Source of the DNA: Candidatus Nanohaloarchaea archaeon
GTDB lineage: Archaea > Nanohalarchaeota > Nanosalinia > Nanosalinales > Nanosalinaceae
Assembly: GCA_041640075.1 (NCBI GenBank)
Contig: JBEQAY010000001.1
Coordinates: 14,845-57,946 of the forward strand
Direction: 5' to 3'
Length of the DNA stretch: 43,102 nucleotides
In this document: positions 39,001-42,000 of the stretch, in pieces
How the letters are laid out: every line of letters begins with the position of its first letter
Numbering within the stretch: position 1 is the first letter of the stretch
Made by a program: the position numbers

Positions 39001-42000
39001 CTATGTATACGAGATGTAGAATTTAATATCCTATGAGTAAGAGAAATAGAGAGAATAAGTAAATTAGAGAAAAGAGAGATTTACTGGACTTCGATGTTTT
39101 CCTTGTCGAAGCCTTCTTCCGCCAGGACGTCTTTTATCCTGCGTGTGTGGTCTCCCTGTAACTCAATCTGTCCGTCTTTGGCTGTTCCTCCGCATGCAAG
39201 CTTGGATTTAAGGCTGGAGGCAAGTTCGTCGAGATCTATGTCGTCTCCGAGTCCTTCGACGACTGTCATCTCCTTGTTGTAGCTTCGGGAGTCAATCTTG
39301 ACTTTGATTTTTTGCTCGGCTCTCGCCAGAGAATCTGAGATGTCGAGTTCGTCTTCGATTCCGCTGTTGGGATTGATGTCTGACATTATAGTATAATCTA
39401 GTTAGAACTTTTCTCGTTTAAAACAGTTTTAATCCGGGCGATGCTTTTCTTCATGTCTGCAAGTTCACCAGGGTTCTCTGCGAAGCCTCCTACTTCGATC
39501 TGACCTCTTTCCTTTACAAGTTCCTTCTGAAGGTCTGTAAGCTGCTGCTGGAGTTCGTCTTCCGTCTTGTCTCTGAGTTCCTGTGTGTCAAGCTTTGTCA
39601 TAGATAACCACCTTTAACCTTCAACTCTGGTTTCAAGCCAGTCTGTGAAGGTTGTACGGTTTTTGTCGTTTTCTTCTGCTTCGAGAAGTGCCTCGTAGTC
39701 CGGATTATCCAGATCTTCTATTGCGTCTTTAGCATCGCTGATTGTTCCGGATACAATTTCCTCGTACTCTGCCTCTGCTCCTTCACTTTCTTCAGCTTGT
39801 TCTGTATCCTCTACAGGAGGTTCTTCATCAGCTTTGGATTCGTCTTCCTGTTCTTCCTCTGGTTCTTCACTTACTGCTTCTTCTTCGTCTTCAGTTTCTT
39901 CTTTGGATTCGAAGGCGTCTCTTACTTCGTCTACCTCGATGTCTGAGGTTTCGATTGTTTCTCCTCTTTCTTCAATTGCTCTTTCGATTTCACCTGAAGT
40001 CATGTTGTCTGCTTCTTCTATGACGTCTTCAATCCTGGTTGATTTCTCTGCTGCGTCTTCGTCAACCTGTGTCTCGTGGAAGATTTCCTTTTGTACGTCT
40101 TCGATCTTTCTGTGCTGGAACTCTGGAAGTGAGTCCATGATTCGGACTTTGACTCCGATTGCTCCAGGCTTTGTACGTGCAAGTTCGTATGCCTTTGAGA
40201 CGTTGTCTTTTGATGTGTTTCCACATCTCTTTACGTATCCGAATGAGAATTTTTCTGTTCGTCCACGGTTTCCGGAGAGCTTTCCTGTGATCTCTACTTC
40301 TGCTCCGATTACTCCTGCTTCCTTCATTCTGCGGATGTAAGTGTATCCTACTCTTTTGGCGTGACCGCCTTTTTGAAGCCAGTCGGCGATGCTTTTTGCA
40401 ACGACTTTTGCGTTGGCGTCTCCTTCCTCGATCTCGTTGACCTCGATCTGAGGGTTTTCAAGATCGAATGCTTCTTCCATGTCTTCTGTTAGTTCGTTGA
40501 TACGTGATCCTCCACGTCCGATGACCAGTCCTGGTCTCTGTGCGTGGATCACTACTTTTGTGCTTGTAGGTGTACGCACGATATCTGAGTGGCTGTAGCC
40601 TGCTCCTTCAAGTTCCTCTTCTAGGAACTCGTCAAGTCTTACCTTGCGTGCGCCTTTCTGTATGAATTGTTTTTCTTTCATTCTAGTATACCTCTTATTC
40701 TGAAACGAATACTTTGACGTGTGCTGCTTTTGATGTCCTTCCTCTTAGTCTGGAAGGTGTTGCGACTTCTCTCCCCTGGTTGGTGATGACGTTTGAAACG
40801 TTCATCGCGTTCGGGTTGAGTCCCTGATCCTCTCCGTTGCTCTTGGCGGCCTGAACGAGCTCGAGGATTTCTTCGGCTGCCTTTACAGGATAGCCTCCTG
40901 CTTCTCCTCCGCTTCTGTGTCCTGCGTCGGAGTCGAACTTTGTGTATGGGACGTGAAGGTCTTTTTCGATTACTTTCTCAAGCTTGTGCTCGGCTTTGTC
41001 GACGGAGTCTCCCTTGATGAATCGGCCGATCTCTGTGCTGTCCTTCCATGAGATCGGAATGTTTTTGCCGACTGCCTTTGCTTCTTCTGTCATTACTGAA
41101 GCACCTCTTTACTTGAGTGGCACGTGCTTGGATGAACGTGTTGCTCCAAGTCCTGGTGCGCTGTGTGATACTTCTTTACGGGTTTGTGAAAACTCTCCAA
41201 GGTAGTGGCCAAGCATTTCAGGTTCGATCTCTACTTCGATGAATCTCTGTCCGTTGTATACCTGAATTGTCTTGTCGATCATCTTTGGAACTACAATCAT
41301 GTTTCTTTCATGCGTCTTGACGTTGTCTTTTTCTTCAAGATCTTCGAGAAGTTTTTTCTCATCATCTTTGAGTCCTCTCTTGATCTTTCTTCTTCCGTCT
41401 GATGTTAGAAGTTCTGCGAAGTCCTCAAGGTTCATTTCCTTGAGTTCTTCAACTGTCTTTCCTCTGTAAGTAAATTCTTCACTCATGTTATCATTCCTCC
41501 TTGCTTCCGCTCTGTGATGCGCCTATGTTTCCTACTTTACTTCCTGGGGAAGCGTGCTTGGAAGTTGTCTTAGGCATTCCTGGTTTTGCTGATCCACCGA
41601 ATGGGTGGTCTACTGCGTTCATGGCTACGGCGGAAACCGTTGGGTAAGACTTTCCTTTCGCCTTCATTGCCTTGTGCTTGTTTCCGGCCTTGACGAATGG
41701 TTTGTCCTTTCTTCCTCCTGCTGCTACTTTTCCGACTGTTGCTCTGCATTCTGTGGATAGTTTCTTGAATTCCTTGCTTGGTAGTCGGATTCTTGTTCCG
41801 TCTGCTTCCTGTGTTACGACGAATGCGTATGTTCCGGAAGAGCGGACAAGTTTTCCGCCGTCGTTCGGCTGTGTTTCGATATTATGTATTGGTACTCCTT
41901 CTGGGATCTCTCCTAGAGGAAGTGTGTTTCCTTCTTTGATCTCGGCTTCTACTCCTAGCTGGATTTCCTGTCCTACCTCGATTCCTTCAGGTGCGAGAAT

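What a model noticed while it worked through the whole genome (the two positions that open the first line are those of the whole stretch)
39614..40681. A shared 45-residue terminal domain on three ribosomal proteins and three membrane/Bat-locus proteins
Ribosomal proteins uS3 (g00057, C1:54458-55525, res 308-352), uL24 (g00050, C1:51257-52075, res 225-269) and eS24 (g00351, C6:27474-27911, res 100-144) each end in the same ~45-residue domain (in uS3: [sequence left out]) hung on a long acidic linker. The same domain is the cytoplasmic end of two small membrane proteins (g00694, C17:13685-14140, C-terminal after 2 TM helices; g00835, C23:15318-15986, N-terminal before 1 TM helix) and occurs twice in g00722 (C18:17073-18506) next to a MoxR-DUF58-VWA locus. 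It matches no Pfam family. A domain common to both ribosomal subunits and to membrane anchors suggests a lineage-specific docking module (ribosome-ribosome or ribosome-membrane tethering, o [...]
Evidence so far: Seen in the sequences; all-vs-all BLASTP links g00050,g00057,g00351,g00694,g00835 only through this stretch, 44-54% identity, E 1e-8 to 3e-13. hmmscan of the three tails against Pfam-A at E<=10: 0 families. Word-index search with the eS24 tail: 126 proteins; of the 120 listed 118 are eS24 and 2 eL31, named ones Nanohaloarchaea. phmmer of the uS3 tail against 1.84 billion representatives: 81 proteins at E<=0.001, domain always terminal, 1-5 copies; Pfam on 41 of them finds it fused to uL22, uL24, uS3, eS24, eL31, eL32, RNA polymerase Rpo1C, KaiC-like and MoxR ATPases; of 10 looked up, the 4 with names are 2 Nanohaloarchaea, 1 Nanohalobium and 1 Altiarchaeales eL32. 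Profile built from these fi [...]
(Added by a program. Inside this text positions count along the whole contig: contig position 14,845 is position 1 of the stretch shown here. "Call 12" and the like, gene names such as g00115 and contig names such as C1 are that model's own, and its searches are not shown. The text may have been shortened before it was handed on; [...] marks where a part breaks off. The agent that wrote the report below was given it as the finding of a first reader that could run no searches.)

Follow-up and report, generated by a model that had tools for sequence, protein, structure and literature searches.

The report
Shared tail domain on nanohaloarchaeal ribosomes
Several ribosomal proteins, membrane anchors and other cell machines of these tiny salt-loving archaea carry the same small four-helix domain on a long flexible tether; the module appears undescribed and its binding partner is unknown.

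Summary
uS3 (window 39614-40681, minus strand) and uL24 (36413-37231, minus strand) end in the same ~50-residue domain (45% identity, E 1e-12). It sits behind linkers of about 100 residues that are 44-51% acidic. Three more proteins of the genome carry clear copies, and the MoxR-operon protein carries two degenerate ones.

AlphaFold2 predicts a compact four-helix unit (pLDDT 91.5). No Pfam or NCBIfam family and no solved fold matches it convincingly.

The profile finds the domain in 69 of 70 genomes of the phylum. The seventieth has a divergent copy on uS3 behind a Lys/Glu-rich linker. Carriers include seven ribosomal protein families, RNA polymerase A'', GINS51, KaiC-, MoxR- and PilB-type ATPases, several membrane-anchor families, zinc-finger and wHTH proteins, and viral prohead proteases. 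A 50-residue copy stands alone in two Haloferax species, and a Halorubrum virus protein has a distant relative.

On uS3 and uL24 the domain evolves under purifying selection similar to the ribosomal cores. Copies are occasionally homogenised by gene conversion.

My best reading is a flexibly tethered docking tag for one shared, unidentified partner (confidence 0.4). Binding is not shown. The rivals are nucleic-acid binding, a solubility tag, and near-neutral spread by recombination.

The parts
40097..40681 (-). uS3 core (aa 1-195): KH_2 and Ribosomal_S3_C domains
   Evidence: Pfam KH_2 at aa 16-83 (E 9e-18) and Ribosomal_S3_C at aa 98-181 (E 2e-18). Net charge +2.
39773..40096 (-). uS3 linker (aa 196-303): low-complexity acidic tether
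   Evidence: 108 aa, 48 D+E against 8 K+R, net -40. No Pfam match. Less conserved than the core or the domain: identity 0.59 against 0.87 and 0.78, pN/pS 0.50 against 0.20 and 0.33.
39617..39772 (-). uS3 terminal four-helix domain (aa 304-355); the stop codon is at 39614-39616
   Evidence: HMM E 2e-33. AlphaFold2 pLDDT 91.5 with helices at 3-11, 14-23, 29-38 and 43-54 of the 55-aa tail.
36857..37231 (-). uL24 core (aa 1-125)
   Evidence: Pfam Ribosomal_L26 at aa 14-122 (E 1e-18) and KOW.
36569..36856 (-). uL24 linker (aa 126-221): acidic tether
   Evidence: 96 aa, 49 D+E against 3 K+R, net -46.
36416..36568 (-). uL24 terminal four-helix domain (aa 222-272); the stop codon is at 36413-36415
   Evidence: HMM E 1.4e-34. 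45% identical to the uS3 tail.

Best explanation
The last ~50 codons of the uS3 and uL24 genes encode copies of one autonomous four-helix domain. The consensus is DYEEIVSGTVDEVKEAIEELEDPDYEKLLEAEKEGKDRKTLKEWLESR, with E36 and R42 invariant. Long, charged, low-complexity tethers hold the copies away from the ribosomal cores.

The domain is a mobile module of the Nanohaloarchaeota. In every carrier whose topology could be read it lies on the cytoplasmic side, and it is almost always at a protein end, in one to five copies.

I think it most likely works as a flexibly tethered protein-protein docking tag. Every carrier would 'fish' with it for one shared binding partner, still unidentified, which could be another copy of the domain. 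Ribosomes carry three to five tags each. Tandem-repeat proteins and membrane anchors carry further copies. Avidity would then hold all of these in one neighbourhood.

Shown here: the domain exists, its predicted fold is confident, it is distributed across the phylum, it is under purifying selection, and copies are interchangeable between carriers. Inferred: that it binds a protein, what that partner is, and that tethering or co-localisation is the outcome.
For: (1) It is an independent fold unit. AF2 gives pLDDT 91.5 and pTM 0.71 for the 55-aa tail. In a natural two-copy protein each copy folds, while the 5-residue joint has pLDDT below 50.

(2) It has the architecture of an adaptor. 138 of the 150 best representatives carry it within 12 residues of an end, and 20 of 150 carry 2-5 copies. 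The linkers are charged and poorly conserved.

(3) It has been fused to unrelated carriers many times. Of the 150 representatives, 29 are ribosomal proteins (13 eS24, 9 eL31, 4 uL24, 1 each of uS3, uL22 and eL32), 46 have the domain at the N-terminus followed by one TM, and 15 have TM segments followed by the domain at the C-terminus. RNA polymerase A'', KaiC, MoxR, Gins51 and a prohead protease also appear. Further carriers are uL10, a T2SSE ATPase, a DsbA-like protein and wHTH coiled-coil proteins.

(4) It is universal in the phylum. The profile hits 69 of 70 genomes. uS3 carries it in 10 of 10 genomes inventoried. The one genome without a profile hit has a divergent copy on uS3 (hhalign E 6.3e-5).

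(5) It is under purifying selection. pN/pS for the uS3 domain is 0.33, against 0.20 for the core and 0.50 for the linker. For uL24 the values are 0.31, 0.34 and 0.39.

(6) Copies are interchangeable. In genome G021 the uS3 and eS24 tails share 39 of 41 codons at identical degenerate residues. Identity between different carriers within one genome is 0.579, against 0.552 when genome labels are shuffled; 11 of 2000 shuffles reach the observed value.

(7) The domain is strongly acidic, net -8 to -15. That fits a protein ligand better than nucleic acid.
Against: No partner has been identified, and nothing here demonstrates binding.

AF2 does not pack tandem copies into a fixed pair: pTM is 0.48 and the joint is disordered. 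The alignment behind that model is shallow (15 rows), so this is weak evidence.

The most conserved polar feature is a mixed-charge loop, E36-x-x-G-K-x-R-K-T, in front of the last helix. Many carriers are nucleic-acid machines. Both points would suit nucleic-acid binding.

Gene conversion occurs, and in one genome the domain sits on the acidic tail of uL10. Recombination in repetitive linker DNA may therefore spread the module cheaply. Breadth of carriers need not mean a coordinated function.

Conserved gene neighbours gave no candidate partner.
Confidence: 0.4

Rival explanations
1. The domain is a small nucleic-acid-binding module, HeH/SAP-like or HTH-like. It would tether ribosomes, RNA polymerase, GINS, zinc-finger and wHTH proteins and membrane anchors to DNA or RNA.
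For: Many carriers are nucleic-acid machines. The loop G-K-x-R-K-T before helix 4 and K18 are conserved: R42 100%, K40 82%, K18 89%. They survive in a lysine-rich, non-acidic lineage. By eye, helix 2 ('TVxEVKxxI') recalls the first helix of SAP/HeH motifs, and helices 3-4 recall an A-x3-G-x5-L HTH pattern; both patterns are recalled, not taken from a call. Stray weak hits go to HTH families: HTH_72 in 1 of 55 members at E 0.0086, and Mnd1 HTH in 2 of 55. The genome-wide HMM's next-best hit after g722 is an HTH-like stretch at E 0.079.
Against: The domain has net charge -8 to -15 and hangs on tethers of net charge -40 to -46. The Rho_N, SAP and HeH profiles hit none of the five tails at E <= 10. 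None of the 50 best fold matches is a chain I recognise as an HTH. The best matches are generic helical-repeat hairpins at Z <= 5.7. MoxR, PilB-type ATPase, DsbA-like and prohead-protease carriers are not obvious nucleic-acid binders.
Confidence: 0.2
2. The tether plus cap is a solubility or assembly-chaperone tag. A polyanionic tail would neutralise basic ribosomal proteins and keep them soluble at multimolar salt. The small stable domain would merely cap the free end. Ubiquitin fused to eS31 and eL40 in eukaryotes is thought to aid ribosomal protein production in a similar way (recalled).
For: The ribosomal cores are net +2, while tail plus domain add about -53 charges. G000 uL10 carries an acidic tail with no domain at all, so tails can exist on their own. 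The domain is very acidic.
Against: This does not explain why 61 of 150 representatives are membrane proteins with the domain on short tethers, nor why tandem copies exist. It does not explain why a lysine/glutamate-rich, non-acidic lineage keeps the domain on uS3, nor why Haloferax keeps a 50-aa stand-alone copy. A mere cap would not need invariant E36 and R42 across 140 instances.
Confidence: 0.15
3. The breadth of carriers is largely a by-product. The module spreads by recombination or gene conversion between repetitive, GAA/GAT-rich linker DNA and is tolerated at exposed termini. It would have a real function on only a few carriers, such as uS3 and the membrane anchors.
For: Gene conversion between uS3 and eS24 tails in G021, with 39 of 41 codons identical. 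The carrier set varies between genomes: eS24 in 8 of 10, uL24 in 7 of 10, eL31 in 4 of 10, Rpo1C in 2 of 10 and uL10 in 1 of 10. The domain has been appended to a pre-existing acidic tail of uL10.
Against: The uL24 domain is as constrained as its core, pN/pS 0.31 against 0.34. uS3 carries the domain in 10 of 10 genomes. The membrane-anchor family is found in 8-9 of 10 genomes and makes up 46 of the 150 representatives. Copy numbers are stable at 3-11 per genome across 69 genomes.
Confidence: 0.1

Closest known systems
Ribosomal P-stalk tails (archaeal aP1/aP0, bacterial bL12)
   Same: A conserved terminal element is held on a flexible, acidic hinge projecting from the ribosome, in several copies. 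This is the classic 'fishing line' that recruits factors (general knowledge, recalled). In one genome the stalk base protein uL10 itself ends in the domain.
   Different: The terminal element here is a folded 50-aa four-helix domain, not a short hydrophobic peptide. It sits on uS3, eS24, uL24, uL22, eL31 and eL32, and on non-ribosomal proteins. The genome keeps a canonical aP1 ending in EGLGNMF. Binding to translational GTPases is untested.
Ubiquitin fused to ribosomal proteins eS31 and eL40
   Same: A small, stable domain is genetically fused to ribosomal proteins. PDB profile searches even put ubiquitin residues 20-59 on top.
   Different: A single ubiquitin scores only E 0.55, and the higher poly-ubiquitin scores come from summed repeats. 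The model is all-helical, not a beta-grasp. The domain is at the C-terminus, with no Gly-Gly cleavage site. I take the resemblance to be chance.
Bitopic proteins with an N-terminal cytoplasmic helical domain (RodZ, ToxR-like regulators, anti-sigma factors)
   Same: The commonest carrier (46 of 150 representatives) has the same layout: a small N-terminal helical domain, a linker, one TM and an ectodomain. In these known families the cytoplasmic domain binds a specific partner (recalled).
   Different: No sequence or fold match to their HTH or anti-sigma domains. The same domain also sits on soluble machines.
Flexible coupling tails: Mycoplasma pneumoniae NusA C-terminal extension, RNA polymerase II CTD
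   Same: A flexible extension links RNA polymerase to the ribosome in M. pneumoniae, and in the E. coli expressome the mRNA lines up with uS3/uS4 (PMC8116511, passages read). Here uS3 is the universal carrier, and RNA polymerase A'' carries 1-2 copies at its C-terminus in 2 of 10 genomes.
   Different: No evidence that the uS3 and A'' copies meet. In the family to which the window's genome belongs, RNA polymerase was not found tagged.
HSTV-2 gp66 C-terminus, the Haloferax 50-aa protein, and PHROG families 29632, 22690, 1983 and 29345
   Same: These are the closest by sequence. The Haloferax mediterranei and H. mucosum 50-aa proteins are members (hhalign probability 99.1%, E 8e-19). HSTV-2 gp66 has a globular part, an acidic linker and a related C-terminal domain (probability 89.9%). 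It is also the top BFVD fold hit (probability 0.90).
   Different: All are annotated 'hypothetical' or 'unknown function', so they add carriers but no function. The PHROG matches are weak (best E 3.7e-4; 17 of 55 members for phrog_29632).

Membership tests
Any Pfam-A or NCBIfam family | Profile match above the curated cut-off | tested here: not met
   Pfam returns 0 families at E <= 10 for the two tails. Among 55 family members no Pfam family is hit by more than 2. NCBIfam gives one stray hit of 16 bits against a cut-off of 110.
Ubiquitin-like beta-grasp (as in eS31/eL40 fusions) | Significant sequence match to ubiquitin | tested here: not met
   A single ubiquitin chain scores E 0.55 and 13 bits. 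Lower E-values come only from poly-ubiquitin, through summed repeats.
Ubiquitin-like beta-grasp (as in eS31/eL40 fusions) | Beta-grasp fold | tested here: not met
   The AF2 model has four helices and no strand, at pLDDT 91.5.
SAP / HeH / Rho_N helix-extended-loop-helix motifs | Match to PF02037, PF12949 or PF07498 | tested here: not met
   Whole-genome scans at E <= 10 hit none of the five tails.
SAP / HeH / Rho_N helix-extended-loop-helix motifs | Fold likeness | tested here: inconclusive
   None appears among the listed fold matches. These motifs are very small, however, and a missing match is not evidence of a different fold.
Helix-turn-helix DNA-binding domains | Profile or fold match to an HTH family | tested here: inconclusive
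   Only stray single hits: HTH_72 in 1 of 55 members and Mnd1 HTH in 2 of 55. None of the 50 listed VIA matches is a chain I recognise as an HTH.
Ribosomal stalk tail (aP1/aP0 type) | Flexible acidic hinge projecting from a ribosomal protein | tested here: met
   The uS3 linker is 108 aa and 44% D+E. The uL24 linker is 96 aa and 51% D+E.
Ribosomal stalk tail (aP1/aP0 type) | Short conserved hydrophobic C-terminal peptide (GLGxxF type) | tested here: not met
   The tails end in a folded domain. The canonical peptide EGLGNMF is present on the separate aP1 gene.
Ribosomal stalk tail (aP1/aP0 type) | Binds translational GTPases | not testable with these tools
   No binding assay is available.
Protein docking modules on tethers (dockerin, RIIa D/D and the like) | Small autonomous domain at a terminus on a flexible linker, on many unrelated carriers | tested here: met
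Protein docking modules on tethers (dockerin, RIIa D/D and the like) | A defined partner or self-association | not testable with these tools
   No partner was identified. This needs biochemistry or a proteome-wide co-folding screen.
HSTV-2 gp66-like and Haloferax 50-aa proteins | Profile-profile similarity over the whole domain | tested here: met
   Haloferax: probability 99.1%, E 8.3e-19 over 49 columns. gp66: probability 89.9%, E 1.7e-6 over 42 columns.

The most novel reading that the evidence does not exclude
The domain is the common plug of a phylum-wide cytoplasmic tether network. It would hang on long flexible lines from several points: the ribosome (uS3 at the mRNA entry, uL24, uL22 and eL31 around the exit tunnel, eS24, uL10), RNA polymerase A'' (the position of the eukaryotic CTD), GINS, secretion and AAA+ ATPases, and membrane anchors. 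All copies would bind one hub, or each other. In these ultra-small cells this would physically couple transcription, translation, replication and the membrane. Their viruses would plug into the same network through the prohead protease.
Probability: 0.15. Interest if true: 0.85.

Novelty: new variant of a known kind. Interest (0 to 1): 0.65.

Why it matters
Lineage-specific ribosomal protein extensions are usually unstructured tails that pack onto rRNA. Here up to five ribosomal proteins per genome, from both subunits, carry a folded domain on a tether of about 100 residues that should project far from the particle. The identical module sits on membrane anchors, RNA polymerase, the replisome, ATPases and viruses.

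If it is a docking tag, it would reveal how a DPANN cell organises its cytoplasm. It would also give an affinity handle for nanohaloarchaeal ribosomes. The stand-alone copy in the genetically tractable genus Haloferax makes the question testable at the bench.

If it proves to be a solubility tag or a nucleic-acid binder, it is still a new, well-defined domain family: 354 representative proteins among 1.84 billion, present in every genome of a phylum. No library searched here contains it.

Tried and rejected
- Co-folding of two copies of the domain (complex prediction): no verdict (score 0.00, mark 0.42, controls not run). It says nothing for or against self-binding.
- AF2 of a natural two-copy protein: both copies fold, but their relative orientation is not fixed (pTM 0.48). 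The alignment has only 15 rows.
- Ubiquitin homology: rejected. The single-domain E is 0.55 and the model is all-helical.
- Foldseek against PDB: 0 matches at E <= 0.001. VIA-align wide: best Z 5.7, generic helical repeats, below the tool's own noise guide. 'No known fold' is therefore not shown.
- BFVD: 0 matches at E <= 0.001. The top row led to HSTV-2.
- ESM Atlas for the tail and for g835: no usable hit.
- SAP, HeH and Rho_N profiles: no hit on the tails.
- tblastn of P0102 and P0020 against phages, and of the Haloferax protein against phages: no match.
- The search for related loci: gp66 family in genome contigs and P0102 in viral contigs gave no confirmed relative.
- Relatives of gp66: only 4 close ones, none named.
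- Gene neighbourhoods: synteny only. eL15 and DNA ligase lie beside the 2-TM carrier, SOD beside the 1-TM carrier, and MoxR-DUF58-BatA lies upstream of g722. No candidate partner emerged.
- Literature: five full-text searches listed no paper describing this domain. I read passages only in four papers. [quoted passage not shown] 10.1101/2025.02.15.638363 and PMC13324472 contain nothing on it. PMC8116511 gave background only. No supplements were read, and papers outside the library were not searched.
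Full report
**The observation.** The finding's coordinates hold one 355-aa ORF on the minus strand (39614-40681). 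It lies inside the usual archaeal ribosomal gene cluster uS19-uL22-uS3-uL29-SUI1-GNAT-Rpp29-uS17-uL14-uL24-eS4. Pfam places KH_2 and Ribosomal_S3_C in residues 16-181 and nothing after them.

The last ~50 residues align with the end of uL24 (36413-37231, minus strand) at 22 of 49 identities, E 1e-12. I built an HMM from these two tails and ran it over all 11,782 stop-to-stop frames of at least 40 aa in the 979,576-base assembly. It finds five carriers and, after four further rounds, nothing else at E <= 10. They are uS3, uL24, eS24, a 151-aa protein with two hydrophobic segments, and a 222-aa protein with one.

It appears only with a broader, 140-instance HMM, at whole-protein E 1.9e-5 with two stretches. 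Its orthologue in another genome has two clear copies. The protein family follows MoxR-DUF58-BatA/VWA in 5 of 5 loci examined. The linker is long and acidic only on uS3 (108 aa, net -40) and uL24 (96 aa, net -46). On eS24 it is about 13 aa.

**The domain.** From 140 instances the consensus is DYEEIVSGTVDEVKEAIEELEDPDYEKLLEAEKEGKDRKTLKEWLESR. E36 and R42 are invariant. K18, D28 and T44 are about 90% conserved, and Y6 is 85% conserved.

AlphaFold2 with a 55-row alignment gives four helices (3-11, 14-23, 29-38, 43-54) at mean pLDDT 91.5 and pTM 0.71. T13, D28 and T44 sit where helix N-caps are expected. This, like a possible E36-R42 salt bridge, is inference, because I could not see the coordinates.

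In a natural two-copy protein both copies fold, but the joint has pLDDT below 50 and pTM is 0.48. The copies behave as beads on a string, as far as a 15-row alignment can tell.

**Distribution across genomes.** The profile hits 40 of 41 close relatives and 69 of the 70 genomes held for the phylum, with 1-11 matches each. Named sources of matching proteins are Nanohalobium, Nanohalovita, Nanosalina, Nanosalinarum and 'Nanohaloarchaea archaeon'.

The one genome without a profile hit is 93% complete. Its uS3 is 308 aa, with a Lys/Glu-rich rather than acidic linker. It ends in '...ELIKQENRGKARKTLLDTL...', which hhalign relates to the family at E 6.3e-5, probability 64.5%. The module therefore probably predates the acidic proteome, or at least does not depend on it.

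**Distribution across proteins.** Against 1.84 billion representative proteins the profile finds 354 at E <= 0.001 and 109 at E <= 1e-10. Of the best 150:
- 138 carry the domain within 12 residues of an end, and 20 carry 2-5 copies.
- 29 are ribosomal proteins (13 eS24, 9 eL31, 4 uL24, 1 each of uS3, uL22 and eL32).
- 46 have the domain at the N-terminus followed by one TM.
- 15 have TM segments followed by the domain at the C-terminus.
- Single representatives are RNA polymerase A'', a KaiC-like ATPase with five copies, a MoxR ATPase with two, Gins51, and a Caudovirus prohead protease.

**Inventories of ten genomes.** These gave 61 carrier ORFs and added four carrier types: uL10, a T2SSE (PilB/FlaI-type) ATPase with two copies, a membrane protein with a DsbA-like ectodomain, and wHTH coiled-coil proteins. 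Carrier frequencies were:
- uS3 in 10 of 10 genomes
- eS24 in 8
- uL24 in 7
- the one-TM anchor in 8-9
- the two-TM anchor in 5
- the g722 type in 5
- eL31 in 4
- RNA polymerase A'' in 2
- uL10 in 1

No stand-alone copy occurs in these ten genomes; the shortest carrier frame is 121 aa. Where topology can be read, the domain is cytoplasmic. The evidence is a basic stretch before the TM, sequons after it, and a DsbA ectodomain. The weakly PKD-like carriers were not resolved.

**Outside the phylum.**
- tblastn against plasmids found a 50-aa annotated hypothetical protein on the Haloferax mediterranei megaplasmid. It has a 78%-identical counterpart in H. mucosum. hhalign against the family gives probability 99.1%, E 8.3e-19.
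- The top BFVD fold hit was an uncharacterised protein of Halorubrum virus HSTV-2. Its gp66 has a globular part, an acidic linker and a C-terminal stretch related to the family: HMM E 4.3e-4 among 1,029 frames, hhalign probability 89.9%.
- Three PHROG families of unknown function are weakly hit, by 17, 8 and 6 of 55 members.
- One representative, an eL32 with the domain at its N-terminus behind a Lys/Glu-rich linker, is labelled Altiarchaeales by its source.

**Evolution.** Among eight genomes of one family, pN/pS on uS3 is 0.20 for the core, 0.33 for the domain and 0.50 for the linker. On uL24 the values are 0.34, 0.31 and 0.39. Synonymous sites are near saturation (pS 0.63-0.81), so these are rough.

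Identity to the window's proteins shows the same order. Those orthologues were collected through the domain itself, so 'all have it' is true there by construction.

Copies on different ribosomal proteins of one genome are slightly more alike than expected: 0.579 against 0.552 after shuffling, with 11 of 2000 shuffles reaching the observed value. Genomes are kin, so this overstates the effect. In G021 the uS3 and eS24 tails share 42 of 50 residues and 39 of 41 codons at identical degenerate residues, against 45-74% in the other 13 pairs compared. That indicates recent gene conversion. Copies are thus exchangeable between carriers.

**Comparison with known families.**
- No Pfam or NCBIfam family matches.
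- PDB sequence profiles put ubiquitin residues 20-59 on top, but a single ubiquitin scores E 0.55 and the model is helical, so I reject it.
- Foldseek finds nothing at E <= 0.001. VIA-align's best Z is 5.7, on generic helical repeats, inside that tool's stated noise range. A new fold is not shown.
- The SAP, HeH and Rho_N profiles miss the tails.
- The canonical stalk protein aP1, ending in EGLGNMF, is present. The tails therefore do not replace the stalk.

**Mechanism.** A small autonomous domain, nearly always terminal, sits on variable charged tethers. It occurs in one to five copies and has been fused independently to unrelated carriers. It is conserved like a ribosomal core and swaps between carriers. 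These are the marks of an adaptor domain.

I commit to a tethered protein-protein docking tag for one shared partner, at confidence 0.4. Whether that partner is a second copy of the domain or something else stays open.

The rivals are:
- a nucleic-acid-binding module (0.2), favoured by the conserved G-K-x-R-K-T loop and the nucleic-acid carriers, and disfavoured by the charge and the failed profile tests;
- a solubility or assembly tag (0.15);
- largely neutral spread by recombination in repetitive linker DNA (0.1).

The remaining probability lies with mechanisms I have not thought of.

**Literature.** Five full-text searches listed nothing on this domain. In the one paper on nanohaloarchaeal indels, the passages I read call terminal indels 'difficult to interpret'. 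Subscription journals and supplements were not covered.

Noticed in passing
L073:1495-2661 (-) in genome G014; G000 C4:8488-9447 (-); G000 C4:1341-1652 (-): In G014 the stalk-base protein uL10 (388 aa) ends in the shared domain. In the window's genome uL10 (320 aa) ends in a run of Glu, with neither the domain nor a stalk peptide. aP1 is canonical and ends in EGLGNMF.
   Followed up: partly
L036 and L040 (genome G021: uS3 and eS24 tails): The two tails share 42 of 50 residues and 39 of 41 codons at identical degenerate residues (nucleotide identity 0.89). This points to recent gene conversion between two ribosomal protein genes.
   Followed up: yes
L020:1153-2079 (-) in genome G028: The only genome of the phylum without a profile hit has a uS3 with a Lys/Glu-rich, non-acidic linker and a divergent copy of the domain. 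This suggests a less halophilic or differently adapted branch.
   Followed up: partly
L069:367-975, L032:267-881, L068:2236-2886, L070:234-848; L065:944-1498; L045; L003:5762-6319: Redox genes recur beside carriers. Fe/Mn superoxide dismutase lies next to the one-TM carrier in 4 of 9 loci (by BLAST cluster; Pfam run on three). A peroxiredoxin lies next to a bPH+Zn-ribbon carrier. One carrier has a DsbA-like ectodomain, with a DsbD_TM gene upstream. A pyridine-nucleotide-disulphide oxidoreductase fragment lies next to g835. This may be plain synteny.
   Followed up: no
L002:5669-6274 and counterparts in L071, L054, L076: The two-TM carrier (g694 type) lies divergently next to the eL15 gene in 4 of 5 loci, and next to DNA ligase in 3.
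   Followed up: no
window 38474-38998 (-) and 39081-39386 (-): A GNAT acetyltransferase (Acetyltransf_3, E 6e-25) and SUI1 sit inside the ribosomal protein cluster, between uL29 and RNase P subunit p29.
   Followed up: no
P0102 and P0143 (metagenomic proteins): Two prohead-protease (S78) proteins carry the domain internally (aa 175-229 and 178-231), followed by a long acidic region. Both end in ...PRIGG. They are presumably from viruses of nanohaloarchaea. No relative was found in the phage or IMG/VR collections.
   Followed up: partly
L091:3521-4162 (+), Haloferax mediterranei plasmid NZ_CP039140.1: The annotated 50-aa stand-alone gene is the end of a longer open frame of 213 aa, whose upstream part is Pro/Ser/Gly/Ala-rich. 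The true start is uncertain. An Hsp20 gene follows and an S8 peptidase gene precedes.
   Followed up: no
L082:14088-15233 (-), HSTV-2 gene 102: A second HSTV-2 protein has a weak match to the domain profile (E 1.1e-3 among 1,029 frames).
   Followed up: no
L034:494-1492 (+) beside L034:1489-2871 (-), genome G010; P0002: A C2H2-zinc-finger KaiC-like ATPase lies tail-to-tail with a membrane coiled-coil carrier that has two domain copies. In P0002 the same ZnF-KaiC layout has five copies inserted between the finger and the ATPase.
   Followed up: no
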